Of a stretch of DNA of 64,000 nucleotides, positions 40,192 through 60,353 are shown piece after piece. Under the pieces are notes generated by a model. It was not told the origin of the DNA. It ran no database searches and saw nothing but the letters and a program-made list of their open reading frames with translations. Each line of letters opens with the position of its first letter. Within the stretch, counting starts at the first letter, position 1. The position numbers and the translations under genes are program-made. Source of the DNA: a virus; IMG/VR virus record IMGVR_UViG_3300035438_001058, positions 1 to 64,000 of that record, one strand, 5' to 3'.

Positions 40192-40826
40192 TTAATAAGG
40201 GTTATGTCGCCAAAGTATGTCAGGCCATCGGTTGTGATGACCCATATATACACGGCTGGCGGATAATTTGCACCGTCCCAGCCACTAAACTCATCATTGG
40301 TGTAAAAGCCAGAGCGGCTCCACACCTCTGATCCCCAACGGTCGAACACCATCATCTCCTCAATGAGGATACTCTCCTCACTTATTGGATAGATGAAGGC
40401 GTTTATTGTGTCCCCGTTAGGACTGAACGCATTCGGCACCCAAAACTTGGCCTTTTTCTTAGGCCCGACAATTGCTGTATCAATAACAGCTGTGTCGATG
40501 GGTGTATCACAACTAGTGGCAACAACCACCTGATCGTATGCGCCAATGGTGGACTTTCCGTCATCATTGACTAACACGATTCTAGTGTACCACAACGTGC
40601 CTGGCGTTGTGATAATAATCATTGTAGAGTCTTCACCTCCCCCAAACACATGGCCGAAGGGAAGCTCATACTCAGCACTACCTCCCGTTATATCAAACGT
40701 GGAGTACGACCCAGTGGCTGGGTCTGATGTTTCATACAGGTAAAATGGTTCGCCTACGCAAACCTCCTGTTGGGCTGCCACTCCTGTACTCAGTAGCAGC
40801 AGCCCTATTAGGACCCTATAGATCAT
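40188..40826 (-). CDS. Secreted protein with a gliding-motility-associated / T9SS type B C-terminal domain (TGA stop)
   Basis: Signal peptide from ATG 40826; FWVPNAFSPNGDTINA...VFDRWGSEVW...WDG...YIWVI...GDITLIK matches the CHU_C-type pattern. Confidence 0.85.
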   Translation of the reverse strand: MIYRVLIGLLLLSTGVAAQQEVCVGEPFYLYETSDPATGSYSTFDITGGSAEYELPFGHVFGGGEDSTMIIITTPGTLWYTRIVLVNDDGKSTIGAYDQVVVATSCDTPIDTAVIDTAIVGPKKKAKFWVPNAFSPNGDTINAFIYPISEESILIEEMMVFDRWGSEVWSRSGFYTNDEFSGWDGANYPPAVYIWVITTDGLTYFGDITLIK

Positions 40827-41514
40827 TTTTATATAATTTTTTGGGGGTTGTCCCCCGTTTAACATATACCCCAATAGACGCGGAGTGCATACGTGCCGTA
40901 TTAACTACGGACGTAATGTCTACGTCTACTTGGAGCATTGCTCCGATCTTAACACCTGAATCAAACAGGTGCCCTATCCCAACTTTTATTGGGATGATTT
41001 TGCCTGAGTTCCGGTGTAGCGCGTTTTTTTTACGAATCATTGGCATTGCTGCCATCTGATCGTTCGCGCTTTTTAATGAGTTCAGTATTGTGGGGCGTCC
41101 GAACCCCTTATCGTAGACCAGCTTATAGCCGATCTTGAGGGTTACGAACTGATACCCCCCGGACAGGGCGAAATCTTCCCCGAACCCAGCCTCGATTGAG
41201 GCGGATAGGTACTGAAGTGCCGACTTAGAGGTCGACACTTCTGCCCGCAAGAATGCGGGGAAGGTTTCGTAATACGCTTCCGCATTCACCCCGAAAGATG
41301 GGGCGAATATGAAGCGTTTTAGCGACTTTTTGTAGTCGCTGAGCTGGATATTTTTGTCCTCCAGATAGGACACCAGATCGGTATTTTCATACCGGATCTT
41401 GGGGCTCAAGACCCCGAAGCCTGCAGACAAACCGTAGTCGATTTGCTGGGCGTACGTAGCGGTGGTAAGAAGCAGGAGGAAAACTATCCCCCTGCCCTTG
41501 ATTTTGTTATGCAT
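40816..41514 (-). CDS. Secreted, probable outer-membrane beta-barrel protein
   Basis: Signal peptide ending TTATYA-QQ; YGLSAGFG and SIGVYVK strands. Confidence 0.6.
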   Translation of the reverse strand: MHNKIKGRGIVFLLLLTTATYAQQIDYGLSAGFGVLSPKIRYENTDLVSYLEDKNIQLSDYKKSLKRFIFAPSFGVNAEAYYETFPAFLRAEVSTSKSALQYLSASIEAGFGEDFALSGGYQFVTLKIGYKLVYDKGFGRPTILNSLKSANDQMAAMPMIRKKNALHRNSGKIIPIKVGIGHLFDSGVKIGAMLQVDVDITSVVNTARMHSASIGVYVKRGTTPKKLYKNDL

Positions 41515-41515
41515 T

Positions 41516-42190
41516 TTATAGCTTTGGTTGTACGACGAACCCAGTTTCGTCGTTGTGTTTGAAGAGCTCGAATGCTGGGTTCGAGATTTGTTTCCACTCC
41601 CTGCTGTACGTCAGCAGGGAGTATAGTGAGCGTCCATTATGCGCCAGACTAGCTGGTATGTATATTAGGTCTGCTGTCAACCTCCCTTGTGTGAGCGATC
41701 CCCAACCTACACCGCTACCAGTGAAGTGGATGTTGCATCGCAATTCCCCCGACTCGTATATGTACCCAATACGGTCATTATCCTGCGAATTGTTTGCCCA
41801 GAGGGTATATTCCTTTGTTGCTCTGATTACCTCTTTGTCACCAATACCCCACATTTTCATGGAGTCAGCACAAGAGCGCGACACCTTTGCACAGGTCTCG
41901 GTAAGCGACATAAAATATGTCGCCTTGGTTTCTAGCACTTGACTTTTAAACCAAGGCTGTGTGGACAACCACTTTGCCATTGTTGTGGCAGGAATGCTTA
42001 GTGTATGGGCTTTTTTGGGGTGCCAGATAGTGCACAAGTCACTTTTATTAGTGATGTGTACCCATCTGAGTTCATTGTCCTCCACAACACTCCAATCAAG
42101 AAGTTCACACTTCTCTTTTTCGGTTATGAAAAAACTAAAACCGTTGTAGGTGGGACAGACCCTTCGTTTACTTCCCAGGAATTTTTTCAT
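41516..42190 (-). CDS. Hypothetical protein
   Basis: 224-aa ORF with an A-rich leader. Confidence 0.6.
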   Translation of the reverse strand: MKKFLGSKRRVCPTYNGFSFFITEKEKCELLDWSVVEDNELRWVHITNKSDLCTIWHPKKAHTLSIPATTMAKWLSTQPWFKSQVLETKATYFMSLTETCAKVSRSCADSMKMWGIGDKEVIRATKEYTLWANNSQDNDRIGYIYESGELRCNIHFTGSGVGWGSLTQGRLTADLIYIPASLAHNGRSLYSLLTYSREWKQISNPAFELFKHNDETGFVVQPKL

Positions 42191-42248
42191 ACTTTGTTTT
42201 TTAGTTTAAAAGGTTAAAAATCCCCAGGAATTGTGCTATAGTACTTGT

Positions 42249-42306
42249 GGCGGTTTCTAGTGAAACATTGACCATAGTTAGGCGGTTTCTAGTGAAACAT
42301 TGACCA
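42249..42306. repeat. Two perfect 26-bp direct repeats (32-bp period) inside a long inverted repeat
   Basis: GGCGGTTTCTAGTGAAACATTGACCA at 42249-42274 and 42281-42306. Confidence 0.9.
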
Positions 42307-42331
42307 AGTAGTAGCACAACCCTGGGGTTGT

Positions 42332-43132
42332 TTATGCTTTGTAATGTGCTTGTGGTTGTTGCTCACCTTCTATGGTGATGAGTTTTTCGTAGCGGTCAAA
42401 TGCCGCATTGCACAATTGGGTGCGGTGATCTGGATGCACCCAGCAAGGTGCACTCAACACCACTGTTTTGTAGTGCAATCCCATCTCATAGTAGCCGTGG
42501 TGGCCACCATTTAGCAGGTACTGGAGTTGGACGTTTGTAAACTCAGAGATGGTGGCGACCAGCTGGTCGAAATCTTGCAGCACTTTAGCGTGCTTTTGTT
42601 TAAACTCTTTCACTTCTGCGAGAGTTGCACTCTCAATGCTGCGCATTGATGTAAACGGCCCGCCAGCGTACTGCTGGGACCATAGCACCTTTGTGGTGCT
42701 ATGGTTTTTGAATGCGGCAATAAGCCCGTCCATACCAGATGGACGTGGGTCTGCGATGAATTTTTTGACAGCCGTTCCAAGAATTTGCAATTCTTCGTTT
42801 TCTTTTGCCACTTTGGCCGCATAAGCCACCGCCTCAGCGGCGAGCCTTGCTCGATACGCCTTCGCATCCGCCACATCGGCCAGGATTTTTTCCAGGTTAT
42901 TTGGCAAACTTCTGGCCGATGCCCAGAAGTGGTATTCACGGCGGAAGTTCCGCCCTGAGATTAGTACCTGAACTACTTCAGGTAGCTCATTGAATTTTCG
43001 AGTATTCCACTCGCTAGTCGTGATTCTAACTCCTTTAATGGTGAAATGAAAATCACTGCAAAATCGGTTAAATGTCACGGATAGGTGTCCTGCCGTGTAC
43101 GTGAATCGGTCAAACTTGTTCTGATCGCTCAT
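42332..43132 (-). CDS. Hypothetical protein
   Basis: ORF 42332..43192; the probable start is ATG 43132 (MSDQNK). Confidence 0.65.
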   Translation of the reverse strand: MSDQNKFDRFTYTAGHLSVTFNRFCSDFHFTIKGVRITTSEWNTRKFNELPEVVQVLISGRNFRREYHFWASARSLPNNLEKILADVADAKAYRARLAAEAVAYAAKVAKENEELQILGTAVKKFIADPRPSGMDGLIAAFKNHSTTKVLWSQQYAGGPFTSMRSIESATLAEVKEFKQKHAKVLQDFDQLVATISEFTNVQLQYLLNGGHHGYYEMGLHYKTVVLSAPCWVHPDHRTQLCNAAFDRYEKLITIEGEQQPQAHYKA

Positions 43133-43330
43133 TTTTATATTTGAACTTTGGTTTGTTAGACCTTGGTAGTTAGCCCGTTCACTGATGTTCAATCAGCATA
43201 CCCCTTTTTCAGGGTTTTCCATAAATTTGCCTACTCTAGTTTACCCCTTTTCGGCTACCTGGGTAATGGTTACTGTGCTTGTAGAATGAGTGTCTACACT
43301 TAGCTGACTACCTTAGTCAGAGCACTTTTT

Positions 43331-43606
43331 TTACTCGATTATATCCCCCCTTACATGGGACGATATTAGAATCCGCCCTAAAGCGGTTTTACTTGTCAGG
43401 ATTAGAACCTGATTGTCGCACCCGACCAGTGCGATACCTGTCGAGTCCTTACACAGGACGGTGACGGGTTTTACTAGTTTGGAGTAGGCCCGCGATTCAC
43501 GAGCATTTACAACGTCTTCCGCGGGGCGGTTGATGTCATCGTAATCCGCAACTTGCAGCGCAAAGGCTGCGAAGGCTGTGACTACTATAATTATGAAATA
43601 TTTCAT
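43331..43606 (-). CDS. Small secreted or membrane protein
   Basis: Signal-like N-terminus. Confidence 0.6.
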   Translation of the reverse strand: MKYFIIIVVTAFAAFALQVADYDDINRPAEDVVNARESRAYSKLVKPVTVLCKDSTGIALVGCDNQVLILTSKTALGRILISSHVRGDIIE

Positions 43607-43627
43607 ATTTAAATTTTTTAATATTTC

Positions 43628-43978
43628 TCAAAGGCCTCTATATCGAATTGGCCAATGATGAGAAAAGGTAATATCAAGGATTTCCCCCTTTCTAGGAAAA
43701 GGGGAACTAAAGAAGGTGTTAAAATCAAATCCCTCTATGAAGAGGTTGTCGGTAGCGGAGAGGATCTCAAGAACGCATTCGGCGTAATTGAGGGCACTAG
43801 CACGTCCCCAGGGGAAAGCAAAAACAAGGTATGTTTTATATCTTGTTTTGCGGATTGCGTACCCACTTGCGTGGCTTAACACCAATTTTCCCTTGTTGAA
43901 GCTAGGTACTGTGTCTAAGTACCTAGCTTCCACTAATATGTCCTTCATTTTTTTATGGTTAAATTTCGCGTGGCTCAC
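43628..43978 (-). CDS. Hypothetical protein (TGA stop)
   Basis: 116-aa ORF; the start may be the internal MKDIL. Confidence 0.5.
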   Translation of the reverse strand: MSHAKFNHKKMKDILVEARYLDTVPSFNKGKLVLSHASGYAIRKTRYKTYLVFAFPWGRASALNYAECVLEILSATDNLFIEGFDFNTFFSSPFPRKGEILDITFSHHWPIRYRGL

Positions 43979-44285
43979 TATGAGACAATATTTCTGGTAC
44001 CCATTTTAGCCTACTACAAAGTCTATTGTGCAGCGTTCTGCACAATTCAGCTTCTGCCGGGGTTGCTGGGGCAAATTCCTCGCAAATTAATACGAGTTTT
44101 TTTATTCGGTCATTTGATAAATACCTAAAATAATAGGCATCGATAGGGATAAGGCAATCCTCGTCCGAGCAATGCCTCTCGTCGTCTATGTTATAGACGT
44201 ATTCATCAATAAGAGGGTTTTTAAAATTTGCGCAAACTCCTAGCGCTTTAGTTGACACTGTAAGCCTTGAAATGAAATGTCCCAT
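43959..44285 (-). CDS. Hypothetical protein
   Basis: 108-aa ORF with an A-rich leader. Confidence 0.55.
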   Translation of the reverse strand: MGHFISRLTVSTKALGVCANFKNPLIDEYVYNIDDERHCSDEDCLIPIDAYYFRYLSNDRIKKLVLICEEFAPATPAEAELCRTLHNRLCSRLKWVPEILSHSEPREI

Positions 44286-44389
44286 GATTTCGTTTTTTAA
44301 TTTATTAATTCATAGTTCGGCTATTTGCATTGGTTAGGTGCAAATATATTAAAATATAGACACAATGGGGTGGGAGGTTAGTTTTCTGG

Positions 44390-44902
44390 TTAGTTTTCTG
44401 GTTCTGTGACGTTTTCTGGCTTCTCTTCTGGCTTCTCTTCTGGCTTCTCTTCTGGCTTCTCGATTGCACTCAAAGAAACCAATTGATTGTACAAAAAAGT
44501 ATCCGACATCGGATTGATGCAACTTACCGATATCCATTGTATCCGCGCATCTGCGGTTGAAACCTGGAATTTGCATTGTGCTGGCCCTGCATTTAGTTGC
44601 AAGGCAACTTTCAAATGCATCTTGCACGTGTAAGGTATGTTGCCTACTAAAATTTCGGCAGTTCCTGTGCATTGCATCTTCTCTGAAGCAATGGTATATG
44701 TTTTGTCATCGGCACCAACACGAGACTCGATACGAGACGTTGGTAGCCCGCTACATACGTAAGACTTCAGCGTCACCGCCTGTATCGGATCGTTCTGAAC
44801 GAGCGCAAAAAGTTTTTGGTTTACAGAGCCACCACCGCCTGTTGGCGAAGTGATAGCCGCAAAAGCCGCCTTAACGGCTTCAAGTTTAGTTACCTGGAAC
44901 AT
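44390..44902 (-). CDS. Hypothetical protein with a (KPEE)n acidic tail; first gene of the leftward arm
   Basis: 170-aa ORF; 12-bp tandem repeats at about 44415-44460. Confidence 0.7.
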   Translation of the reverse strand: MFQVTKLEAVKAAFAAITSPTGGGGSVNQKLFALVQNDPIQAVTLKSYVCSGLPTSRIESRVGADDKTYTIASEKMQCTGTAEILVGNIPYTCKMHLKVALQLNAGPAQCKFQVSTADARIQWISVSCINPMSDTFLYNQLVSLSAIEKPEEKPEEKPEEKPENVTEPEN

Positions 44903-45178: not shown

Positions 45179-45209
45179 TTGCTTTTTCTCTTTTAATGTC
45201 GTATCTTTG
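45179..45209 (+). promoter_or_regulatory. Bacteroidota sigma-70-type promoter
   Basis: TTG-N20-TATCTTTG matches the -33 TTG / -7 TAnnTTTG consensus. Confidence 0.7.
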
Positions 45210-45477: not shown

Positions 45478-45508
45478 TTGCATTTCGCATTTTAATGTTG
45501 TATCTTTG
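45478..45508 (+). promoter_or_regulatory. Bacteroidota sigma-70-type promoter (second copy)
   Basis: TTG-N20-TATCTTTG; shares TTTTAATGTyGTATCTTTGTA with the 45179 copy. Confidence 0.7.
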
Positions 45509-47321: not shown

Positions 47322-47694
47322 ACAAAAACCTAATACTCCAAAATCAGAAGTATTAAAAACAATAGAAACCCCAATGGTAGAACAACATATTTTCGATAGT
47401 CTTAATAGCGAGCACTCAAAATTTAAGGAAGAAATATCTATTATTACGAGTGAGCTTGAGGCTGTTAAGAAAGAGAGAGAAGCCTTTCAAAATATAGCTA
47501 ATACAGCGGCTTCTAAGTTGGTAAGTATTGAATCTGCTGTTACTCCTTTTCTTAATAGAAAGTTCAATGTTGTAACAGCTATATATCATTTAAAGGATGT
47601 GGTCGAACTTATTAAACAGATTGTAGAAGCTGTTAAAGAATTCCGTGCTCAGTTTATGGCACCTAACGTTAAACCTGATGATTCTACTAAATAA
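47311..47694 (+). CDS. Coiled-coil hypothetical protein
   Basis: 127-aa ORF. Confidence 0.6.
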   Translation: MKNKQKPNTPKSEVLKTIETPMVEQHIFDSLNSEHSKFKEEISIITSELEAVKKEREAFQNIANTAASKLVSIESAVTPFLNRKFNVVTAIYHLKDVVELIKQIVEAVKEFRAQFMAPNVKPDDSTK

Positions 47695-48172
47695 TTTTGA
47701 TCCTTTTCAAGATTTTTTTAATAGCAATCCACAATTAAAGATCTTATTTAAAGATTATTTAAAAGTTCCTTCTTCCCATATGTGAGGTCTATTTCTATAT
47801 TCTCATCCAGACTCAAAGTTTTTTAATGAGTCTCCAGAAGATAGAAAAGACCTCATATTTAAGGATTATCTTAAGAAAGATAAGACATTTGATTGGGATA
47901 AATATGAGGAGCTATTAAAGAAGATTGAAGTCTCTGTTTTAACTAAAGCTCAAAGAGCCCTTATGAGATGGGAACAGACGTTACATGAACGGGATGATTT
48001 CATAGCTTCTATTCCTTATACTCTCGAGACTTTTGAGGCTAAGGATAAGATGATGGCGATTACCCCAAAGCTTTGAGATCAATATGAAGCTGTATTAGAT
48101 AGGTTGAATAAAGATCAAGGATCTACAATGGGGGACATAGAAGAGTCTCTATCAGAAAAAGGTATTATATAA
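47678..48172 (+). CDS. Hypothetical protein missing from the ORF track (164 aa with TGA 47783 and 48074 read as Trp); possible small terminase
   Basis: MILLNNFDPFQDFFNSNPQL...SSHM*GLFLYSHPDSKFF...TPKL*DQYE...EESLSEKGII-TAA fills the 47694-48183 gap. Confidence 0.75.
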
Positions 48173-48477: not shown

Positions 48478-48757
48478 GGGGGTGCCAGGTATTGATTGCA
48501 CTCATAGGTTTGGTATTACTAGCAAGCAGTCTAAAGACTATAAATTTAAATAATCGACAATAATACTAATGACTTTGGTATCGGACTTCCGTCCTTTTCC
48601 ACAGAAGCAGTTGCTCCTTCTGTTACTCAAGAGCAGCCAGTTTACCAGTACGCATAAGTTTACCACACTAATAGACTATAATATAGGTGTACAGAAGCTT
48701 GTAATTCTAGAATATTAAACGAGTCGTAAGACAGCGGTTCGAATCCGCTCACCTCCA
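48478..48757 (+). ncRNA. ssrA: tmRNA
   Basis: 5' GGGGGTG pairs with 3' CACCTCC-A, including a G3:U Ala identity pair. T arm AGCGG-TTCGAAT-CCGCT. Tag ORF 48556-48657 follows TAAATAATC and ends in YA-TAA. Confidence 0.9.
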
Positions 48758-48772
48758 CTAAAATTAATTATT

Positions 48773-49042: not shown

Positions 49043-49099
49043 ATCGCTAACAGTCGTTAGGTCTCGCCCTCCATGTCGTAAGATGTGAGGGGGCAATTC

Positions 49100-49171
49100 G
49101 GGGATATGGGGTAATCGGTAACCGGGAAGTCTTCAAAACTTTAGTTGTCTGTTCGAGTCAGACTGTCCTCG
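49100..49171 (+). tRNA. Opal (UGA) suppressor tRNA, anticodon UCA, probably tRNA-Trp
   Basis: Acceptor GGGGATA/TGTCCTC with discriminator G; anticodon arm GAAGT-CTTCAAA-ACTTT (TCA at 49133-49135); short variable loop; T arm GTCTG-TTCGAGT-CAGAC. Confidence 0.9.
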
Positions 49172-49944: not shown

Positions 49945-51545
49945 TGACAAAGAATATTCATTTAGAAAAAGAAACACGAGATAAAATGCTGGAAGGTGTT
50001 TTAACTTTGGCACACGCAGTAGGATCTACACTAGGACCAATGGGGTCAAACGTAGTAATTGAGACTCCTTACGGAGCTACCACAGTTACTAAGGATGGAG
50101 TCACTGTAGCTAAACATATTGATTTAGATGATGCTGTGCAAAATTTAGGAGCGCAGATATTAAAACAAGCTGCTTCAAGAACAGCTACTCTTGCTGGCGA
50201 TGGTACAACAACTGCTACTGTAATAGCTGCGTCTTTAGTACAGTCTGCGCATAAATTAATTACTGCGGGTGTGAAGCCTATTGATATTAAAAGAAGGTTA
50301 GAAATTCTCTTATTAGAAGCTCTGAATAAGATTCGGATTCAAGCTAAGAGTGTTGACCTTAATAGGATTAAAGAGATCGCCACTATCTCAGCAAATAATG
50401 ATGAGGAAATGGGGGCTTTAATTCAAGACGCTTACAACCATGTTGGCCCCAATGGAATGATCACTTTAGAGGAATCTAAGACAGGTCTAACTCATTTGGT
50501 TATGGAAGAAGGAGTTTCTATTGACAAAGGATTTGTATCTCCTTATTTTATCACTGATTCTGCAAAAGGAGAATGTATTCTAGAGAATCCATTTATCTTT
50601 ATTACTGATTCTAAAGTTAGATATACTCAAGATATAGTACCTATATTGGAAATTGCTGCTTCTAAATCAAGGCCCCTTCTTATTATAGGAGACGAAGTAG
50701 ATGCTCAAGCTCTTCAGTTGCTCGTACTAAATAAGATGCGCGGGACAATACAAGTATGTGCTATAAATGCCCCTTCTTTTGGGGATAACAGAACAGCGAT
50801 ATTAGAAGATATTGCTGCCCTAACATCTACTACTATTATAACCGCTAAAGCTGGCACTAGGTTAGAGGATACTCCAGAAAGAGCATTAGGAAATGCTCAA
50901 AAAGTTATCATATCAAAGTCGAAGACTATATTAGTAGGACCTAAGAATAACTTAGAGGCTATTGAGTCTAGAGCTGAAGAAATTCGTAACTCTATGGAAT
51001 TGGAGCAAGATCTTTATTTAAAGAATAGACTTCAAAAAAGATTGGCTGATCTTACTGCTAAAGTAGCTGTGCTTCATGTTGGGGGAGCTACTGAAACTGA
51101 ATTAAAAGAACGCAAAGATCGTGTAGATGATGCTCTAAGGGCTACTGCTTGTGCCATACAAAAAGGTTACCTTATTGGCGGCGGTGTAGCTCTAGCTCGT
51201 GTGTCTTCTTTCATAGAGATAAAAGATGCTTTAATAGATCCTATTTTTATAAACGCACTAACATCCCCTCTAAAATTAATAGCTTCAAATGCAGGGCAAA
51301 CAGGAGAAGTAGTTTTAGCTAAAGTTTTATCTTCAGAAGATCTTGATATTGGTTTTAACGCTCGCACGCTCAAGTATTCTAATTTATTAGAGGATGGTGT
51401 AATAGATCCCGCGTTAGTAGTTGAGCAAGCACTCTCAAACGCAGTATCAGCGGCTTCTATGATATTACTTTCTGCTACGGCAATCACAAATAAAGATAGA
51501 AAACCTCCTTTTAATCCAGGTAATATGGAAGATTATGCTGCATAA
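49944..51545 (+). CDS. groEL: Chaperonin GroEL
   Basis: STLGPMG, VTKDGVTVAK, AGDGTTTATV and GGATETELKERKDRVDDAL motifs. Confidence 0.97.
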   Translation: MTKNIHLEKETRDKMLEGVLTLAHAVGSTLGPMGSNVVIETPYGATTVTKDGVTVAKHIDLDDAVQNLGAQILKQAASRTATLAGDGTTTATVIAASLVQSAHKLITAGVKPIDIKRRLEILLLEALNKIRIQAKSVDLNRIKEIATISANNDEEMGALIQDAYNHVGPNGMITLEESKTGLTHLVMEEGVSIDKGFVSPYFITDSAKGECILENPFIFITDSKVRYTQDIVPILEIAASKSRPLLIIGDEVDAQALQLLVLNKMRGTIQVCAINAPSFGDNRTAILEDIAALTSTTIITAKAGTRLEDTPERALGNAQKVIISKSKTILVGPKNNLEAIESRAEEIRNSMELEQDLYLKNRLQKRLADLTAKVAVLHVGGATETELKERKDRVDDALRATACAIQKGYLIGGGVALARVSSFIEIKDALIDPIFINALTSPLKLIASNAGQTGEVVLAKVLSSEDLDIGFNARTLKYSNLLEDGVIDPALVVEQALSNAVSAASMILLSATAITNKDRKPPFNPGNMEDYAA

Positions 51546-53778
51546 TGCACAAAATTTCTTAGTCAAAGATGTGGAAATTCTCCATCCTTTGTCTCAAGAT
51601 TATCGTTCTTATTGAAGAGAACACAAAAGAAGATGTATTGAAGGTTATTGGGTGGGTGGCATTTGGATGCCGCCTGCCCTTTACTATTATGTAAACTTTC
51701 ATACTATAAAACTTAATAAAAGTATTCACACTAATACTAAGTCGTACGGTAGACCTTTGTTACGGGATATTGAGTGGGAATTTTTCTATAATTATTCTGA
51801 AGCGAGAGGTTTCTCAGGTTTTAAGAACGATGATAAGTATTCTTGTCATAGAATACTTTTGAATACTGAAGCTACAGACGATTACTTAATTAAATATTAC
51901 CCAGAGACTGTAAATTCTAAGGGGGAAAGAAAGACTTACGTGCCAGCTAGGACGTATATGCGTCAAGTACATCCTTTTGAATCTTCTCCTTTGTTTCAGA
52001 ACGAGATTAGGAATTTTATGATGTTAGGATCTCGTGGATTTGGTAAATCTTTCTCTGTATCAGGACTCATAGCTCATAATTTCTTATTTGATGGAGCTAC
52101 TGAATACAGCGAGGAAAAGATAATGAATCCGGACGCTGCTGAGATATTAGTAGGGGCGGCCAAATCTGATAGATCCGCAGATATTCTTAAAAAAGTGAAG
52201 GATGCATTTGATTTTTTACCCGGAAAACAGATGGTTAATAATAGGACACATCCATCACCATTCTCTAAACGATTTAGCGGATCTTGAGCAGTTAATTCCA
52301 CTATTGCAGCAGAATATAAACGTAAAACAGAAGGTCAATGAACCACAGTAGGTTCCAGATCTAATATAAAGCACAGATCTTTCAACTCAGATGCTTTTGC
52401 AGCTCAAGGAACCAGGCCCATTTTACTAGTTTTGGAGGAAATAGGTATGTTTCCTAATTTAAAGGAAGTACACGCTAACACAGTGGATAACTTAACTGAC
52501 GGTTACCGTAAGACTGGTATGGCTATGATGTTAGGAACAGGTGGTGACATGGAACAAGGTACTTTAGATGCTTCTGAAATGTTTTACGAGCCTGATAAAT
52601 ATGATATATTGTCTTTTTCTAATGACTGAGAGAGTTCTGGTAACATAGGATACTTTGTTCCAGCGTATTTAGCGCTCAATCAATTTAAAGATGCGCAAGG
52701 AAATACCGACATAGCGGCTGCTAAGAAGGAGATTGATTCTGTTAGGCGCAAGAAACGTGGAAACTCAGGATCTTCAGATGCGTTGAATAAGGAAATGCAG
52801 TATAGACCTATTGTTCCATCTGAAATGTTCTTAACTAAGACAGCTAACATCTTTCCTGCCGCTGAAATTAGGAGAAGGCTTTCAGAAGTGCAGTCATTTG
52901 ATCTGTATAACCAGTCAGAGAAGAAAGTTAATCTATATTTCGACCCAAAATCTCAGTTTAATGGTGTATCTTACAATATAAATGACTCTTTAAACGCCAT
53001 TAGCTCGTTCCCGTACAAGGGAGATGATAGAGAAGGGGCTGTTGTTTTATACGAATTACCTAAGTTTATAGAAGACAAGGTCCCGTCAGATGCCTATATT
53101 ATAGGATGTGACCCATTTAGAGATGATACGAATACAGGAGAATCTTTGGCAGCTATATATGTTATGAAAACCTCTAAATACATATCTAGTATAGGGTATG
53201 ATGAGATAGTAGCCTCGTATATTGGTAGACCATACTTCGGTAAAAATGAGGTAAACGAAACTCTATATAAATTGTCCTTATTTTATGGGGGTGCTAAGAT
53301 TTATTTTGAGAATGCAGTAGGAAATGTAAAAGATTACTTTGAGAAAATCAGAAGACTAGACTTATTAGCTAGGCAACCAGTCACAGTTTTTAATAAGAAA
53401 GCTTCTTATGATTCATCCCCGCAAGTTATTTATGGGTACCCAATGTCTAATGATAAAGTAAAATGAGAAGCGATACAATACTTACGCTCTTGGTTATTGC
53501 AAGAACGTGAAGAAAATAAAAGAAATCTGGATTTAATTATAGATCCAGGCCTACTTCAAGAGTTATTGGCCTTTAATATGAGTATAAATACTGATAGAGT
53601 AATGTCTTTAGTAGGTTGTATAATAGGATTAGAAGAAATAAACAATATCTCGAAAAGAAAGCAAGAGTTTTTGTCTGAAGATAGCGCACTTCAGAAGGAC
53701 ATTAATAGGTTAATTATAAATAATAAACGTTTATTTCAAGATGTTAAATTTCCCAAAGCAACGTCTCTCCTATTCTAA
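51535..53778 (+). CDS. terL: Terminase large subunit (747 aa with TGA at 51613, 52285, 52339, 52627 and 53464 read as Trp)
   Basis: Four track ORFs and the gaps between them form one frame: YRSY*REHKRRCIEGYW, GSRGFGKS (Walker A), LLVLEEIG (Walker B), GTGG, YIIGCDPF (nuclease), NTDRVMS. Confidence 0.92.
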
Positions 53779-56164
53779 AAAATCAGAAGATGATTTTAGA
53801 TGGGCGAGGAAAGTTATGGAATCTTTACTTCAATTTTCTCCAGCACAAAAGAATATAGCTAGTGATTACACTTCAGAGTACGGAAGGAAATTATCTAACT
53901 ATAGGTTGTACAATAATCAACTAGATCAGAAAGATTTTGAGAGAGAATGTAATCCATTAGGATTAGAAGTAGGGCAATTCCAGGATTCAATACAACCTTA
54001 TAATAAGACATATAATAAGATTCAGGTTTTATTAGGTGATGAGTTAAAACGTCCGTTTAATTACAGAGCGGTTTTAGTCAACACTGAGGGCGTGCAGTCT
54101 AAGTTACAGAAGAGAGATTCTTTATATAGAAACTATATATACTCTCAGTTACAAGAAACAGTGAAATCTATAGGTGCCGCTTATGTTCCAGAGTTAGTCG
54201 ATACAATGACAGAGCATATACTACCTCCAGAGGACATTGAAAAATACATGAAGTACTCCTATCGAGAGCGAAGAGAAATCTTAGCTGAGAATATACTCAA
54301 CTATTTAACGAGAAAATTATCCTTAAAAGATAAGAAAAACGATGCTTTCAAGCACGCGTTAATAGCTGGAGAGGAAATCATTTATGTAGGTACTAATAAT
54401 GGTGAGCCTCACCTAGAAGTCATTAATCCCCTAGGAGTGTTTTACCACAAGTCTCCAGAAACAAAGTGGATCCAAGATTCATTATATGCTGGATTTAGGA
54501 CTTATATGACGGTAGGAGAGGTTATGGATAGATACGGTAAGTATCTAACCAAGGCTGAGATTACTAAGCTGGACAATACCACTACAGCAGGAGGAGCTTT
54601 ACCAGACCATAATATGGGCAGTACGCAGTCGTACGGCATACAAGATCAAGATAGGGTTTTATCTAAGATGTATAATTATGACTCAGGATCTTACGGAGAT
54701 TCTCACCACGAGGATATATTAGTACAGCACGTGGAATGGAAGTCCCAGAAAAAAGTAGGCTTTCTAACCATGATAAATGAGTATGGGGAAGAAGAAGAGC
54801 AGATGATATCTGAAGATTTCAAAGTCCCTAATAATGCTATAAAGCAGGTGGAAGTAAAAGACTTTGGTCAAAGATGTGATTATTATTATTGGGAAGAGAA
54901 TGGTATAAAATTCAAATTAGAATGGGACTGGATTCCAGAAGTTTGGACTGGTACAAAGATCAATAACGATATTTATTGCATGATAGGACCTAAAGATCAA
55001 CAATTCAGACCTTTAGATAATCCCAAAGAAGTGTCCCTGGGGTATCACGGAGTAATCTATAATGCTATGAACGCTACCTCTATCTCATTGATGGATAGAA
55101 TGAAGCCTTACCAGTATCTGTACTTTATTGTTATGCATAAGCTTAAAAAAGCTATAGCACAAGACCAAGGTAAAGTATTTCACTTCGATGTTACAATGAT
55201 TGATCCTAAAATAGGATTGGATAAAACCATGTACTATTTAAAGGAGATGAATATAGACTTTTTTAATCCATTAGCTAATGGAGATCAGCCTGGGCAAAAT
55301 CAAAGGGGTAAAGTATCGCACTCTACCGATATGTCTAATATGGCCAATATCAATAACTATATTAATCTACTGCAATCCATTGATCAGCAAATATCAGACG
55401 TAGCAGGTATTAATAGACAACGAGAAGGACAAATTTCTCCTTCAGAAGCGGTGTCTAATACCCAATCAAACCTTCAAATGTCGGCTTTGATTACTGAGAT
55501 TTATTTTCAAGCTCACTCCAAACTATGGGAGAAATGTTTGAATTCAATGATAGCTGTAACCCAACAAGCTTGGAAAGGTAAAAGTATAGCAAAGCAATAC
55601 ATATTAGATGATCAATCAATCGCTACACTAGAGATGAATAATGATGATATTATGGATTGTGAGCTAGGAGTTTTTGTTACGGATTCAGGTAAGGAGTACG
55701 AAATATTCAATGCTCTTATGGGCAAAGCGGAGTCACTTGTACAAGCACAAAAAGCTTCTTTTTCTGATATGATCCGATTATACGAGTCTAACTCAGTAGC
55801 AGAATTAAAGGCTGGTATAGAAAGCTCTGAAGAACTAAGTCAGAGACGACAGCAAGAAGCACAACAAGCTCAAATAGAAGCAGCTCAACAAGCTCAACAA
55901 GCAGAACATGATTTCCAAATGGAGAAATTGGCTATAGAACAAGAGCATGAGTTAATGATAGCTCAGATTGAATCATTTAAATTCCAGAAAGACCAGGATG
56001 CAAATGATAATGGGTTACCAGATCAATTTGAGATTTATAAGTTACGTCAAGACGCTGGTTTTAAAGATCGTAAACTATCCCTAGAAGAAAAAAAGTTAGA
56101 ATTCAATAAGCAGAAAAGCGAAAAAGAGTTACAAATAAAGCGTTCTCAAAACAATAAAAAATAA
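53741..56164 (+). CDS. Portal protein
   Basis: 807 aa, directly after the terminase; FPKQRL start, SLMDRMKPYQYLY and GINRQREG are typical of crAss-like portals. Confidence 0.85.
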   Translation: MLNFPKQRLSYSKKSEDDFRWARKVMESLLQFSPAQKNIASDYTSEYGRKLSNYRLYNNQLDQKDFERECNPLGLEVGQFQDSIQPYNKTYNKIQVLLGDELKRPFNYRAVLVNTEGVQSKLQKRDSLYRNYIYSQLQETVKSIGAAYVPELVDTMTEHILPPEDIEKYMKYSYRERREILAENILNYLTRKLSLKDKKNDAFKHALIAGEEIIYVGTNNGEPHLEVINPLGVFYHKSPETKWIQDSLYAGFRTYMTVGEVMDRYGKYLTKAEITKLDNTTTAGGALPDHNMGSTQSYGIQDQDRVLSKMYNYDSGSYGDSHHEDILVQHVEWKSQKKVGFLTMINEYGEEEEQMISEDFKVPNNAIKQVEVKDFGQRCDYYYWEENGIKFKLEWDWIPEVWTGTKINNDIYCMIGPKDQQFRPLDNPKEVSLGYHGVIYNAMNATSISLMDRMKPYQYLYFIVMHKLKKAIAQDQGKVFHFDVTMIDPKIGLDKTMYYLKEMNIDFFNPLANGDQPGQNQRGKVSHSTDMSNMANINNYINLLQSIDQQISDVAGINRQREGQISPSEAVSNTQSNLQMSALITEIYFQAHSKLWEKCLNSMIAVTQQAWKGKSIAKQYILDDQSIATLEMNNDDIMDCELGVFVTDSGKEYEIFNALMGKAESLVQAQKASFSDMIRLYESNSVAELKAGIESSEELSQRRQQEAQQAQIEAAQQAQQAEHDFQMEKLAIEQEHELMIAQIESFKFQKDQDANDNGLPDQFEIYKLRQDAGFKDRKLSLEEKKLEFNKQKSEKELQIKRSQNNKK

Positions 56165-56231
56165 AACGGCTATTGTAAACTACAAATTTACTTATTAGAC
56201 CTTGTAAAATATATAATATAATATTATTTTT

Positions 56232-57275
56232 ATGATAAATACGAATGATGACTTTTTAGAGCAAATGTTTTCTGATCCTTCAACTACTCCATCAATGCTA
56301 AATGATGATAAAGGTTTTGAAGATTCCCCAGAAATAACTTCTGATGAAACAGAAGAACCAGAAGACGCTCCGGAAGCTCCTAGAGAAGTTTTAGAAGACA
56401 ATGACCCAGTTGTAGAGAATTACGTAAAGTTTCTACAAGAGAATGATCTTATAGAGATACCAGAAGATTACGATTTTCAAGGTACTCCAGATCAAATTCA
56501 GGAAGTATTTGAGTACACTAAAAAAACTAGGTCTGATAAAGCTATACAATCAGTTTTTCAGCAACTTCCAGACGACTTCAAACCACTCCTAGAATACGCG
56601 CTTAGAGGCGGGACTTCTCTGCAGGATTATATGGATACTTTTTCTGATGACTTATCTAACTACGGTTTAGACACTGAAGAAGACCAAAAAGAAATTCTAT
56701 TTAAATACTACAAAGAAACCTCTCCTTATCCAGACGATAAAATTGAGCGGTTGATTTCTCGTTTTAATGATGAGGAAGAACTACGTCTGGAAGCAGCTGA
56801 TGCTTATCAAGAGTTGCTGCAAATACGCGAAGAAAAAAAGAGAGAGCTCATCGTGGAAGCACAGGCTCAAAGAGAAGCGTATAGAGCAGATCTTGAACAA
56901 AAGACTATATCTTTAAACAGAGCTATAGAAGAAACAACTGCTATTCATCCACAAAGAAAAAACAAAGTACGGGCTTTCTTTTTTGATCCCATACAAACAG
57001 CAAACTCTGTTACTACAGGATTTAATGCTACGATAGCTTCTATCTTATCAAATCCAGAACATCAGGCACAACTTGCTGATATACTATTAGATTATAATCA
57101 TAATAATGGTTTTTCCTCTGATAGAATAGAACGACGTGTTAAAACTAAGGCAACTCAAGATTTTAAGACGTTATTGAAAACTAAACTAGATCCAAAACAA
57201 GCTCAAAGATCTTCAACATCTAGAGCACCTCAATCAACTTCCTTTAATTGGGAAGACTATTCACAATCTTTATAA
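56232..57275 (+). CDS. Acidic scaffold-like head assembly protein
   Basis: Acidic N-terminus and coiled coil; located between portal and capsid genes. Confidence 0.65.
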   Translation: MINTNDDFLEQMFSDPSTTPSMLNDDKGFEDSPEITSDETEEPEDAPEAPREVLEDNDPVVENYVKFLQENDLIEIPEDYDFQGTPDQIQEVFEYTKKTRSDKAIQSVFQQLPDDFKPLLEYALRGGTSLQDYMDTFSDDLSNYGLDTEEDQKEILFKYYKETSPYPDDKIERLISRFNDEEELRLEAADAYQELLQIREEKKRELIVEAQAQREAYRADLEQKTISLNRAIEETTAIHPQRKNKVRAFFFDPIQTANSVTTGFNATIASILSNPEHQAQLADILLDYNHNNGFSSDRIERRVKTKATQDFKTLLKTKLDPKQAQRSSTSRAPQSTSFNWEDYSQSL

Positions 57276-57280
57276 TTTAC

Positions 57281-58756
57281 ATGGCTACTCCTCAATCTTC
57301 TTTAATAATCAAACGTTACGACGCTTTTGGCGGTAACTTTATTGATTCTGATTACCTAGCTGCTTCTTACGAGAGCGGCAAACCTACATACCTGCCAGGT
57401 ATGATGATGCAGACATATTCGTCACAGTCACGCTTTATGAATCTGAAACCCCTCTTGAATCTTGTTGGCGTTAGTTCCAACGGAGGAAAAGAGATTGAAT
57501 CTGAAATTGTTCGTTGGTACCTACGTGGCGCAGAAGATCGCGATGCTCGTTCTATTGAAGCTGTAGATATTACCAACACTACACCAGGTCTTAACGGTAC
57601 TACTTTCCGCATTAAATTGGATTTGGATTATTTCCACTTCCCAGATATCCTTACTCCAGAAGATAACGATTTCCCTATTCAAGTAGTGGAAGGAGCAATT
57701 CCAGACGGTACAGGTTACATTTATGTTTGTAAACTTGTTACAGACAACCCACAGCTTTTTGTAGACCCTAATCTTTTACAGGCTGGTCGCACTTTCACTA
57801 AAGTATCTACCGCTGTGCCTTCTGAGTACAACCAATGGTTCGGCACTCAGCAGTATCCAAACGTATTCTTGCTTGAAGCACAACTTGGTTCTTTCGGACA
57901 ATCTTTGCACATCACTGACAAAGCTTGGAGAGACGGTGGTCGTCTTGGAGTTACTTTCCAGCACACTAACGCTGCAGGCGCTACTTCAGAGGTAAACAAA
58001 TTTATCCCTTACGCAGAGAACGTAATGGTAGATGAGTTCTACAAAACTATCGAATGGGCAGCTGTATACGGTAAGAAATCTACCATGTCAGGTCCAGATA
58101 AATATTGGATCAAAACAGGTCACGGTCTTCGTGAGCAACTCAGAGATGGTTGGACTCAGCAATACACTGGAGCTCTTTCTGTAACACTTCTTCAAGATTA
58201 TCTGATGTCCGTATTCTTTGGACGTGCTGATGAGACTAATCGTGATGTAAAAGTAATGACCGGAACTCTCGGTTCAATCTTGTTCCACAATGCTTTGGCA
58301 GCTGTGGCTAACGGATTCCTTACCGTTGATACACACTATGTACGCGATATCAAATCTCCTACATCTACTCCTTGGCTTGCTTATGGCGCAGAGTTCCGTC
58401 GCTATACTGGTCCATCAGGTATCTCCGTAGATTTGATGTTGAATCCAATGTACGATAGTATGCAGTATTGCAAACAATTCCACCCACAGTACCCAGATAT
58501 GCCGATTGATTCCGCTCGTATGACATTCCTTGATTTTGGAGGAATGGGCGTAGACAAGAACATTGAGCTTCTGAAAGTTAAGGACTCTTTCTATTACGGC
58601 TACAAGCCTGGTATGTTGTCCCCATCTGGCCCAATCAAAAATAACGGTATGTTTGGCGAATTAAAAGCTGGTTACGATGTAGCTATCCAAGGTTCTTTCG
58701 GTATTGTTATGCGTGATGTAACCCGTGGTGGTGAACTTATCATGTCTGTAGAGTAA
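57281..58756 (+). CDS. Major capsid protein
   Basis: About 491 aa from ATG 57281 at the canonical position; TGHGLREQL and LNPMYD segments resemble crAss-like MCPs. Confidence 0.85.
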   Translation: MATPQSSLIIKRYDAFGGNFIDSDYLAASYESGKPTYLPGMMMQTYSSQSRFMNLKPLLNLVGVSSNGGKEIESEIVRWYLRGAEDRDARSIEAVDITNTTPGLNGTTFRIKLDLDYFHFPDILTPEDNDFPIQVVEGAIPDGTGYIYVCKLVTDNPQLFVDPNLLQAGRTFTKVSTAVPSEYNQWFGTQQYPNVFLLEAQLGSFGQSLHITDKAWRDGGRLGVTFQHTNAAGATSEVNKFIPYAENVMVDEFYKTIEWAAVYGKKSTMSGPDKYWIKTGHGLREQLRDGWTQQYTGALSVTLLQDYLMSVFFGRADETNRDVKVMTGTLGSILFHNALAAVANGFLTVDTHYVRDIKSPTSTPWLAYGAEFRRYTGPSGISVDLMLNPMYDSMQYCKQFHPQYPDMPIDSARMTFLDFGGMGVDKNIELLKVKDSFYYGYKPGMLSPSGPIKNNGMFGELKAGYDVAIQGSFGIVMRDVTRGGELIMSVE

Positions 58757-59103
58757 TGAATATAGAGCAGCAACTGGGAATCAAGTTGTCTGTACTAGTA
58801 GCAGGTTTAGTAGGAGGCATCGTTTCACTAACTTACGAAGAAAAAATCTCTTTTCAAAGAGCCGTTCTTCTTATAGTAGCTGGTGCCTCTACTGCAGCCT
58901 ATTTACAACCATTAGCTGAACACTATATGAGTATCCCAGAGAATTTCTCCTCTGGTTTAGGATTTGTTTTAGGACTGATTTCCATGAAATTAATAGATTC
59001 CGTAATGATAAACGCTACTCATTTATTAGATAAATATTTGTATGCAAAGCGAAATAATCCCCCTGACACTGACGGCGACAAACGTAGCAGTGACATTGAT
59101 TAG
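58756..59103 (+). CDS. Putative holin
   Basis: Three hydrophobic helices (LVAGLVGGIVSL, LLIVAGASTAAYL, GLGFVLGLISM) and a charged C-tail. Confidence 0.65.
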   Translation: MNIEQQLGIKLSVLVAGLVGGIVSLTYEEKISFQRAVLLIVAGASTAAYLQPLAEHYMSIPENFSSGLGFVLGLISMKLIDSVMINATHLLDKYLYAKRNNPPDTDGDKRSSDID

Positions 59104-60351: not shown

Positions 60352-60353
60352 TT

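What the first reader, a model, noticed from the sequence alone, without database searches (positions are those of the whole stretch)
49100..49171. Phage-encoded UCA-anticodon tRNA as the probable master switch
Seen: a complete cloverleaf with loop CTTCAAA (anticodon UCA), a short variable loop and a G73 discriminator. It is the only canonical tRNA found in the window. It lies on the rightward arm downstream of two host-type promoters and upstream of the terminase with its five TGAs. Established: G73 is a bacterial tRNA-Trp identity element. Inference: its accumulation licenses synthesis of full-length primase, helicases, PolA, terminase and RNAP in a standard-code host. No release factor or TrpRS gene is recognisable in the window.
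Basis: partly seen in the sequence, partly recalled or inferred. Interest (0 to 1): 0.85.

Follow-up and report, generated by a model that had tools for sequence, protein, structure and literature searches.

The report
Phage opal-suppressor tRNA-Trp (UCA)
A freshwater crAss-like phage carries its own tryptophan tRNA that reads the stop codon UGA, and it needs that tRNA to make its terminase and replication enzymes; this kind of code switching is already described in crAss-like phages, so this is a clear new example, not a new mechanism.

Summary
Window 49100-49171 (+) is a canonical 72-nt tRNA: Rfam 52.8 bits, anticodon UCA, 4-nt variable loop, G73. It is the only canonical tRNA in the 85-kb phage record.

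- **Conservation.** Two related phages have a homologue at the same syntenic place. All 20 stem pairs hold across the three sequences, and 11 pairs carry compensatory changes.
- **Ancestry.** A covariance model built from the three hits only tRNA-Trp(CCA) among its 30 best matches in 151 Bacteroidota genomes.
- **TGA means Trp.** All five in-frame TGAs of the terminase align with TGG in relatives. Genome-wide, 54 of 69 aligned partner codons are TGG or TGA, and 8 more are Phe or Tyr.
- **Which genes need it.** Primase, Sak4-like protein, two helicases, PolA and tail genes need read-through. Portal and major head protein have no TGA.
- **TGA as stop.** The 27-45 kb module uses TGA as a stop, with back-up stops closer than chance.
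- **No helper genes.** No release factor or TrpRS is encoded in the record, which is about 85% complete.

Suppressor tRNAs, TGA→Trp recoding and block-wise dual coding are published for crAss-like phages (Yutin 2021; Borges 2021), so this is a new member of a known kind. The "master switch" timing is plausible but untested. RNAP identity was not confirmed. The first-stage scan also noted the dual coding and the adjacent tmRNA on this same genome.

The parts
49100..49171 (+). tRNA-Trp-derived opal suppressor tRNA: anticodon UCA, G73, 4-nt variable loop
   Evidence: ARAGORN. Rfam 52.8 bits. Covariation with L006 and L004 homologues: 100% of cells paired, 11 of 20 pairs compensatory. Model R1 hits only tRNA-Trp(CCA) in its top 30 of 151 Bacteroidota genomes.
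49066..49094 (+). Stable hairpin immediately 5' of the tRNA; possible leader, processing or terminator element
   Evidence: Fold -22.1 kcal/mol, z -3.5. L006 has a hairpin at the same place with the same inner sequence AUGUCGnAAGAUGU and a different, complementary outer stem. Function unknown.
48478..48760 (+). Phage tmRNA, 340 nt upstream on the same strand; possible companion of the suppressor
   Evidence: ARAGORN tmRNA with a 33-aa tag. Rfam RF00023 54.6 bits, gathering score 47. Homologue in L006 at 2607-2938, 38 bits; blastn similarity in L003.
45179..45209 (+). Bacteroidetes-type promoter motif 1 (TTG-N20-TATCTTTG)
   Evidence: Regex scan. Motif only; no transcription data.
45478..45508 (+). 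Bacteroidetes-type promoter motif 2, a near copy of motif 1
   Evidence: Regex scan.
51535..53778 (+). Large terminase with five in-frame TGAs starting at 51613, 52285, 52339, 52627 and 53464
   Evidence: PHROG 6681, E 3e-103, one stretch across all TGAs. Each TGA aligns with TGG in relatives.
15182..16156 (-). DNA primase with four in-frame TGAs (codons 9, 48, 127, 150)
   Evidence: Translation. PHROG 12622. Partner codons in G003: TGA, TGG, AAG, TAC.
16837..17496 (-). Sak4-like ssDNA annealing protein with one in-frame TGA (codon 111)
   Evidence: PHROG 2872, E 5e-42, match 3-216 spans the TGA. G003 has TTT there.
17496..18485 (-). DnaB-like helicase with one in-frame TGA (codon 47)
   Evidence: PHROG 19 match 10-324 spans it. 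G003 also has TGA there.
21106..22308 (-). SF2-type DNA helicase with in-frame TGAs at codons 18 and 391
   Evidence: PHROG 16 match 6-377. Codon 391 aligns with TGG in G003.
24207..26099 (-). Family A DNA polymerase with one in-frame TGA at 26001-26003 (codon 33 of the long reading)
   Evidence: PHROG 17, E 6e-97. The alignment with G003 runs across the TGA, which pairs with TAT.
47678..48172 (+). 164-aa gene of unknown function with two TGAs, upstream of the tRNA on the same arm
   Evidence: Both TGAs align with TGG in G003 and G004.
27020..44902 (-). Module in which TGA acts as a stop codon
   Evidence: TGA occurs only at ORF ends in 11 ORFs, often as ATGA or GTGA start/stop overlaps. Three are TGATAG. 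Back-up TAA/TAG is closer than chance.
53741..64000 (+). Portal, major head protein and neighbouring virion genes with no TGA; the block runs to 65235 of the record
   Evidence: 0 TGA against 33 TGG. Portal PHROG 6547. Major head protein PHROG 11589.

Best explanation
This is a functional phage-encoded opal suppressor. It is a tRNA-Trp of Bacteroidota type whose anticodon has changed from CCA to UCA.

**Proposed mechanism.**
- The tRNA is transcribed from the plus arm of a freshwater crAss-like phage. Transcription possibly starts at the two host-type promoters 3.6-3.9 kb upstream and includes the adjacent tmRNA.
- The host tryptophanyl-tRNA synthetase charges it, because G73, C35 and A36 are kept.
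- It then decodes UGA (and UGG, by wobble) as tryptophan, in competition with host RF2.
- This lets the phage make full-length terminase, primase, Sak4-like protein, two helicases, PolA and several tail or cargo proteins. All of these carry in-frame TGA at tryptophan positions.

**Consequences for the rest of the genome.**
- The 27-45 kb module still ends its genes with TGA and is readable with the host code alone. It carries close back-up stops that limit damage once the suppressor is active.
- The most abundant virion proteins avoid TGA altogether.

**What is shown and what is inferred.** Shown from sequence: the tRNA, its conservation and Trp ancestry, TGA = Trp in the named genes, and TGA = stop in one module. 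Inferred: charging by host TrpRS, expression, competition with RF2, and any timing role.
For: - **tRNA.**
- **Conservation.** Three syntenic homologues pair in all 60 stem cells, with 11 of 20 pairs compensatory; sliding the partner columns by 1-3 drops pairing to 33-52%.
- **Trp ancestry.** All of the 30 best hits of model R1 in 151 Bacteroidota genomes are tRNA-Trp(CCA), at 56-65 bits. They share G73 and the GGUCUxCAAAACC anticodon arm.
- **Terminase.** All five window TGAs align with TGG in relatives. TGA/TGG counts over the aligned reading frames form a series: 0/9, 1/11, 2/11, 2/9, 5/5, 6/5 and 12/3 across relatives.
- **Genome-wide.** Opposite in-frame TGAs, relatives carry TGG 27, TGA 27, Phe or Tyr 8 and other codons 7.
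- **Family matches.** PHROG matches run uninterrupted across TGAs in TerL, the helicases and Sak4.
- **Module with TGA as stop.** 3 of 11 are TGATAG (P 0.004) and 7 of 11 have a back-up stop within 8 codons (P 0.007).
- **No helper genes.** No RF or TrpRS in the record.
- **Host.** crAss-like portal, TerL and major head protein and Bacteroidetes-type promoters point to a standard-code Bacteroidota host.
- **Literature.** The same mechanism is described for crAss-like phages (PMC7886860; bioRxiv 10.1101/2021.08.26.457843).
Against: - No expression, charging or proteomic data exist for this phage, so function is inferred from sequence only.
- The record is about 85% complete, so a synthetase, release factor or further tRNA could lie in the missing part.
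- The closest relatives L002 and L003 have TGAs in TerL but no recognisable intact tRNA(UCA) in the parts held.
- The D stem has a G10·G25 mismatch, and position 9 is G where the host Trp tRNAs have A. The effect on TrpRS recognition is unknown.
- The host is inferred, not identified.
Confidence: 0.85

Rival explanations
1. Temporal master switch. The tRNA is made only after infection starts, and its accumulation is the rate-limiting signal that turns on replication and then packaging.
For: - The 27-45 kb module is readable by the host code alone, while replication, terminase and tail genes need the tRNA.
- The tRNA lies behind host-type promoters, preceded by small ORFs that have no TGA.
- The model is published for other recoded phages (10.1101/2021.08.26.457843).
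Against: - There are no timing data.
- Portal and major head protein, which are late genes, need no suppressor.
- A TGA-containing gene (47678-48172) lies upstream of the tRNA on the same arm.
- A tRNA behind a host promoter could be made from the first minute, which would give little delay.
- Which module is early is inferred, not shown.
Confidence: 0.35
2. Mainly an anti-host weapon. The suppressor causes read-through of host UGA stops and cripples host and defence proteins. Recoding of phage genes is then a secondary, tolerated consequence.
For: - Yutin et al. propose this (PMC7886860).
- The adjacent tmRNA could deal with ribosomes that run off host messages.
- The phage's own TGA-terminated genes carry close back-up stops.
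Against: - Essential conserved enzymes carry TGAs: 5 of 9 Trp codons in TerL and 4 of 6 in the primase. The phage therefore depends on the tRNA for its own proteins.
- No data exist on host effects.
- This reading does not exclude the main explanation.
Confidence: 0.15
3. The host already reads UGA as Trp (code 4), and the phage tRNA merely supplements supply.
For: TGA is used as a sense codon in many genes of the phage and its relatives.
Against: - Eleven ORFs in the 27-45 kb module end in TGA, often as ATGA or GTGA overlaps with the next gene.
- The lineage is crAss-like, with Bacteroidetes-type promoters.
- The 30 best Bacteroidota matches all have anticodon CCA.
- From my own knowledge, no Bacteroidota lineage that uses code 4 is known.
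Confidence: 0.04
4. It is a selenocysteine tRNA, a tRNA for another amino acid, or a dead relic.
For: ARAGORN labels it SeC and draws an 8-bp acceptor stem followed by CCA.
Against: - The variable loop is 4 nt and the D stem 3-4 bp, so there is no Sec-type arm.
- The 8-bp plus CCA reading is not conserved in the homologues.
- TGA aligns with Trp or aromatic residues, not Cys, Sec or Gly.
- Strong compensatory covariation argues against a relic.
Confidence: 0.03

Closest known systems
Suppressor tRNAs of TGA→Trp recoded crAss-like phages (Yutin et al. 2021, PMC7886860)
   Same: - A crAss-like phage encodes its own tRNA(UCA).
- In-frame TGA at Trp positions in TerL and other conserved genes.
- Recoding confined to parts of the genome.
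- Code state changes over short phylogenetic distances.
   Different: - This is a freshwater-lake lineage only about 30% identical in portal to the gut crAss-like phages.
- Replication genes are recoded, while portal and major head protein are TGA-free. The published pattern is recoding 'mostly in late genes'.
- A tmRNA sits next to the tRNA.
Code-change model and modules of alternatively coded phages (Borges et al. 2021, bioRxiv 10.1101/2021.08.26.457843)
   Same: - Standard-code genes plus a suppressor tRNA, followed by translation of recoded genes in a standard-code host.
- TGA→Trp, with host TrpRS proposed to do the charging.
   Different: - Jade phages carry tRNA + TrpRS + RF1 next to the lysis cassette. 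Here no RF or TrpRS is found and the neighbour is a tmRNA.
- In the crAss-like and Agate examples of that paper the replication machinery is in standard code. Here it is recoded.
Bacteroidota chromosomal tRNA-Trp(CCA)
   Same: G73, A36-A37-A38, the GGUCUxCAAAACC anticodon arm, the T-loop and the overall length. The three phage tRNAs, as a covariance model, match it best of all host tRNAs.
   Different: - C34→U.
- The D arm is remodelled (GGGGUAAnnGGUAACCGG with G10·G25) and is invariant among the three phage copies.
- G9 instead of A9.
- The window copy has G1-C72 instead of A1-U72. Identity to host Trp tRNAs is about 53-62%.
tRNA-Trp(UCA) of code-4 organisms (Mycoplasma, Spiroplasma) and E. 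coli trpT-derived opal suppressors (own knowledge)
   Same: A UCA-anticodon Trp tRNA reads UGA and UGG and is charged by TrpRS despite the C34U change.
   Different: Those act in cells that lack RF2, or as laboratory mutants. Here a virus supplies the tRNA to a cell that presumably keeps RF2.

Membership tests
Phage-encoded opal suppressor tRNA (TGA→Trp recoding) | Canonical cloverleaf tRNA with anticodon UCA encoded in the phage genome | tested here: met
   ARAGORN and Rfam 52.8 bits; covariation in three homologues.
Phage-encoded opal suppressor tRNA (TGA→Trp recoding) | In-frame TGA in conserved phage genes at positions where relatives have Trp | tested here: met
   TerL 5 of 5 align with TGG. 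Genome-wide, 54 of 69 partner codons are TGG or TGA and 8 are Phe or Tyr.
Phage-encoded opal suppressor tRNA (TGA→Trp recoding) | Trp identity: descent from tRNA-Trp, G73, C35-A36 | tested here: met
   The top 30 of 30 R1 hits in 151 Bacteroidota genomes are tRNA-Trp(CCA). G73, C35 and A36 are present.
Phage-encoded opal suppressor tRNA (TGA→Trp recoding) | The tRNA is expressed, charged with Trp and inserts Trp at UGA | not testable with these tools
   No RNA run holds the phage. No proteomics is available.
Phage-encoded opal suppressor tRNA (TGA→Trp recoding) | The host uses the standard code (UGA = stop) | tested here: inconclusive
   Indirect only: 11 ORFs of the 27-45 kb module end in TGA, the lineage is crAss-like and the promoters are Bacteroidetes-type. 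The host is not identified.
Block-wise dual-coded phage genome | One genome block uses TGA as a stop and other blocks use it as a sense codon | tested here: met
   In 27-45 kb TGA occurs only at ORF ends. Elsewhere TGA is internal and stops are TAA or TAG.
tRNA-Sec | Long variable arm, 6-bp D stem, 13-bp acceptor/T branch | tested here: not met
   4-nt variable loop and 3-4 bp D stem. The 8-bp acceptor drawn by ARAGORN is not conserved in homologues.
Crassvirales (crAss-like phages) | crAss-type portal, TerL and major head protein | tested here: met
   PHROG 6547, 6681 and 11589. tblastn portal matches to 135 crAss-like records at about 30% identity.
Crassvirales (crAss-like phages) | Giant virion RNA polymerase | tested here: inconclusive
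   The giant ORFs 1-10528 and 76027-85207 give no RNAP match in PHROG or in PDB sequence searches. No fold search was run.

The most novel reading that the evidence does not exclude
The suppressor tRNA and the tmRNA 340 nt upstream form a two-RNA code-change cassette with no protein component. The tRNA makes UGA ambiguous. The phage copes in three ways. It places TGA only in low-copy enzymes (terminase, primase, helicases, tail proteins). It keeps TGA out of high-copy virion proteins. It protects its TGA-terminated genes with tandem back-up stops. The phage tmRNA, with its long atypical tag, frees ribosomes that run off host and phage messages after read-through.
Probability: 0.2. Interest if true: 0.6.

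Novelty: new member of a known kind. Interest (0 to 1): 0.35.

Why it matters
It extends TGA→Trp code switching by a phage-borne tRNA from gut crAss-like phages to a widespread freshwater lineage; DNA of this phage is held by lake, freshwater and crustacean metagenomes of at least 11 studies beyond its likely source samples.

It offers a compact test case:
- one tRNA, with no synthetase or release factor found in the record;
- a graded series of relatives with 0, 2, 5 and 12 TGAs in the terminase;
- one module that still uses TGA as a stop.

Practically, gene calling on this phage with table 11 breaks the terminase, primase, helicases, PolA and tail genes, so annotation pipelines need the dual code.

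Tried and rejected
- **Bacterial origin by pattern.** A scan of the species-representative genomes for the phage-type D arm plus anticodon loop gave 3 hits. None is a tRNA, so no bacterial tRNA with this D arm was found.
- **RNA runs.** No RNA holder is listed, so expression could not be examined. Four DNA runs show no variant inside 49100-49171, but only about 0.6 would be expected, so this is uninformative.
- **Base after the codon.** In this genome a purine follows 42 of 46 sense TGAs against 166 of 243 TGGs (P 0.001). In relatives it is 42 of 58 against 188 of 265. The effect is not replicated, so no context signal is claimed.
- **tRNA in L003 and L002.** ARAGORN, Rfam and model R1 find no intact tRNA(UCA) there. 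A stretch resembling the tRNA's 5' half at L003 3025-3074 abuts a group I intron. In-silico joins scanned with ARAGORN found no spliced tRNA, and no 3' half was located. It is unresolved whether this is a split gene or a decayed one.
- **Metagenome relatives.** Their whole contigs could not be searched for tRNAs.
- **RNAP.** PHROG and PDB sequence searches of the giant ORFs gave nothing RNAP-like.
- **15-mer scan.** CGGTCTTCAAAACCG in viral contigs gave at least 119 hits, near the chance expectation. Of the 78 new loci fetched, 35 have an ARAGORN tRNA(tca). Most of these are 93-100 nt and Sec-like; about 8 are canonical in size. This gives only a rough indication that such suppressors occur elsewhere.
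- **MFE fold.** The tRNA alone does not fold better than shuffles (z -0.1). That is usual for tRNAs and is not counted against it.

Full report
**1. What is there**

ARAGORN finds one tRNA in the window, and in the whole 85,208-bp virus record. It lies at 49099-49175 (+) with anticodon tca. Rfam's tRNA model matches 49100-49171 end to end at 52.8 bits against a gathering score of 29.

Read from the sequence, the gene has these features:
- a 7-bp acceptor stem (GGGGAUA/UGUCCUC, with two G·U pairs);
- U8 and G9;
- a D arm GGGU-AAUCGGUA-ACCG with a G10·G25 mismatch;
- an anticodon arm GAAGU-CUUCAAA-ACUUU, giving U33, anticodon U34-C35-A36 and A37;
- a 4-nt variable loop AGUU;
- a T arm GUCUG-UUCGAGU-CAGAC;
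- discriminator G73.

The tRNA sits in a 146-nt gap between two ORFs. ARAGORN's label 'SeC' is only the standard-code name for this anticodon. Its drawing with an 8-bp acceptor stem followed by CCA depends on flanking bases that the homologues do not share.

**2. The genome around it**

The portal, terminase and major head protein are crAss-type:
- PHROG 6547, 6681 and 11589;
- about 30% portal identity to 135 crAss-like records.

Near-identical DNA of this stretch is held by at least 11 lake, freshwater and crustacean metagenome studies beyond the likely source samples. This is a freshwater crAss-like phage.

The genes fall into two arms:
- a minus-strand arm, 11.0-44.9 kb;
- a plus-strand arm, which starts near 45.9 kb, runs to the end of the record and resumes at 1-10.5 kb of the window.

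The gap between the arms holds two near-identical Bacteroidetes-type promoter motifs on the plus strand, at 45179-45209 and 45478-45508. Downstream on the plus strand come, in order:
- six small ORFs without TGA, then a 164-aa ORF with two TGAs and one more small ORF;
- a tmRNA at 48478-48760;
- one more small ORF;
- the tRNA;
- a Dps-like gene;
- a small ORF of unknown function and a GroEL-like gene;
- the terminase and the portal.

**3. The tRNA is conserved and selected**

Related phages were found through the portal protein. Two of them carry a homologous tRNA(UCA) at the same place upstream of the Dps-like, GroEL and terminase genes:
- L006 at 3330-3400 (portal 71% identical);
- L004 at 3397-3469 (portal 64% identical). 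Rfam detects this copy at 42.9 bits; ARAGORN misses it.

Over the three sequences every one of 60 stem cells is a standard pair. Eleven of 20 pairs carry changes on both sides. None of 500 shuffles reaches that, and sliding the partner columns by 1-3 drops pairing to 33-52%.

The loop CUUCAAA, G73, the AGUU variable loop and the unusual D arm are invariant.

**4. It descends from tRNA-Trp**

A covariance model of the three sequences (R1) was run over 151 Bacteroidota genomes. All 30 of the best hits, at 56-65 bits, are tRNA-Trp(CCA).

Aligned, host and phage tRNAs share:
- G73;
- the GGUCUxCAAAACC anticodon arm with A36-A37-A38;
- the T loop.

L006 and L004 also share A1-U72 with the host tRNAs, whereas the window copy has G1-C72.

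The phage copies differ from the host tRNAs by C34→U, G9 and the remodelled D arm. From my own knowledge of the E. coli and B. subtilis systems, G73 and the anticodon are the main TrpRS determinants, and UCA derivatives of tRNA-Trp are still charged with Trp. Borges et al. make the same argument.

**5. TGA means tryptophan in most of the genome**

*Terminase.* From ATG 51535 the terminase has five in-frame TGAs (codons 27, 251, 269, 365, 644). A single PHROG match runs across all of them. In a 15-sequence alignment each one sits in a column where relatives have TGG.

Across relatives the TGA/TGG counts over the aligned reading frames form a graded series:

| Lineage | TGA/TGG |
|---|---|
| L030 | 0/9 |
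| L039 | 0/12 |
| L007 | 1/11 |
| L004 | 2/11 |
| L003 | 2/9 |
| L006 | 5/5 |
| window | 6/5 |
| L035 | 7/7 |
| L040 | 12/3 |

The L007 TGA lies at the end of its gene. One of the six window TGAs lies upstream of the ATG at 51535; from that ATG the count is 5/4.

*Whole genome.* I fetched four related records in full and restricted the comparison to genes on the coding strand. Opposite this phage's in-frame TGAs the relatives carry TGG 27 times, TGA 27 times, Phe or Tyr codons 8 times and other codons 7 times.

*Genes that need read-through:*
- primase, 4 TGAs;
- Sak4-like protein, 1 TGA, spanned by a PHROG match covering residues 3-216;
- DnaB-like helicase, 1 TGA;
- SF2 helicase, 2 TGAs, one near the C-terminus that aligns with TGG;
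- PolA, 1 TGA near the N-terminus that aligns with Tyr;
- the 164-aa gene at 47678-48172, 2 TGAs;
- many tail or cargo genes.

*Genes that do not.* The block from portal to 65235, which includes the major head protein, has 0 TGA against 33 TGG. With roughly one Trp codon in six written TGA elsewhere, my rough estimate of the chance of zero in 33 is about 0.002. TGA therefore seems to be kept out of the most abundantly made proteins.

**6. One module still uses TGA as a stop**

Between 27 and 45 kb on the minus strand, TGA appears only at ORF ends, in 11 ORFs. It often forms ATGA or GTGA overlaps with the next start codon.

The next in-frame TAA or TAG follows sooner than chance:
- three cases are TGATAG (P 0.004);
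- seven of eleven have a back-up stop within 8 codons (P 0.007).

This fits genes written for the host code that later experience read-through. This module has almost no counterpart in the relative G003.

The genome thus uses two codes, as reported for other crAss-like phages. The first-stage notes on this genome say the same.

**7. What the phage does not carry**

Six-frame HMM searches of the record find no RF-1 or PCRF domain and no class-Ib synthetase. CheckV puts the record at about 85% complete, so the missing part could still hold such a gene.

**8. Mechanism and its limits**

The best reading is a virus-supplied opal suppressor. It is charged by host TrpRS and competes with host RF2. 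It is required for replication enzymes, terminase and tail proteins.

Points that fit the switch model:
- one module is readable with the host code alone;
- the tRNA lies behind host-type promoters.

Points that do not fit, or leave it open:
- nothing shows the order or rate of expression;
- portal and major head protein escape the supposed gate;
- a TGA-bearing gene lies upstream of the tRNA on the same arm.

I rate the switch sub-claim at about 0.35. The RNAP part of the claim is unverified, because the giant ORFs give no RNAP match by sequence.

**9. Comparison with what is known**

- Yutin et al. 2021 (PMC7886860) report 243 crAss-like phages with TAG→Gln or TGA→Trp. They describe phage suppressor tRNAs, recoding limited to parts of the genome, and code changes over short evolutionary distances.
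- Borges et al. 2021 describe the same for eight phage clades. They give the early-standard, late-recoded model and note reliance on host TrpRS.

This finding is a new member of that kind. Its particular features are:
- a freshwater lineage;
- a recoded replication module;
- TGA-free major virion proteins;
- close back-up stops in the module where TGA is a stop;
- a tmRNA as neighbour instead of RF1 and TrpRS.

**10. Verdict**

Novelty is low to moderate: interest 0.35.

Noticed in passing
window 48478-48760 (+): Phage-encoded tmRNA 340 nt upstream of the suppressor tRNA. ARAGORN calls it and Rfam scores it 54.6 bits (gathering score 47). The tRNA-like domain is intact, with G3·U. The predicted tag is 33 aa and ends YQYA, much longer than usual. 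A homologue is present in L006 at 2607-2938 (38 bits) and blastn similarity in L003 at 1719-1952.
   Followed up: partly
window 38241-38331 (-): A second tRNA-like RNA in the module where TGA is a stop. Rfam tRNA 46.7 bits with a 25-nt insert at the anticodon loop. It folds with normal acceptor, D and T arms but a roughly 10-bp extended anticodon stem whose tip contains GUUCAAG (MFE z -4.65). The whole-window gathering scan and ARAGORN both missed it. It cannot decode as a normal tRNA; it may be a decoy or mimic.
   Followed up: partly
L003 3025-3251 (related phage): Where the window has its tRNA, this 73%-portal relative has a stretch resembling the tRNA's 5' half, including TCTTCAAA (3025-3074). 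This runs into a group I intron (Rfam 50.5 bits, 3060-3251), followed by ORFs, the first of which (3268-3780) has an HNH-like motif by eye. No 3' half was found. The suppressor gene may be intron-split or decayed in that lineage, whose TerL still has 2 TGAs.
   Followed up: partly
L040 and L036, about 4066-4170: In a lineage with 12 TGAs and 3 TGGs in TerL, the only UCA-loop candidate is an odd tRNA-like sequence. It has the anticodon arm CUAGU-CUUCAAA-ACUAG, an apparent 6-bp D stem, a long variable region and a non-canonical T loop. ARAGORN and Rfam do not recognise it. It may be a non-canonical suppressor.
   Followed up: partly
window 49066-49094 (+): A stable hairpin ends 5 nt before the tRNA. 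L006 has one at the same place with a conserved inner sequence (AUGUCGnAAGAUGU) and a different, complementary outer stem. It has no U tail. It may be a processing or leader element.
   Followed up: partly
L024 and L026 (contig of L004, G003:C1:6257-6329 and 4136-4267): The 99.9-kb relative also carries a tRNA-Lys(UUU) and a 132-nt tRNA with a 76-nt insert at the anticodon region. The window's phage has neither.
   Followed up: no
L030 326-432: A relative with no TGA in TerL has, about 2.2 kb upstream of TerL, a 107-nt tRNA-like RNA (Rfam 37.4 bits). It has an extended anticodon arm, like the window's 38241-38331 element, and is not a UCA tRNA.
   Followed up: no
window, all in-frame TGAs outside 27-45 kb: A purine follows the sense TGA in 42 of 46 cases, against 68% after TGG (P 0.001). 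Terminal TGAs of the 27-45 kb module are followed by a pyrimidine in 12 of 17. The enrichment is not seen in relatives, so it may be chance or specific to this lineage.
   Followed up: yes
window 49944-51545 (+) and 49189-49554 (+): The phage encodes a GroEL-like chaperonin (PHROG 5725, E 2e-138; no Trp codon at all) and a Dps-like protein (PHROG 858) directly downstream of the tRNA.
   Followed up: no
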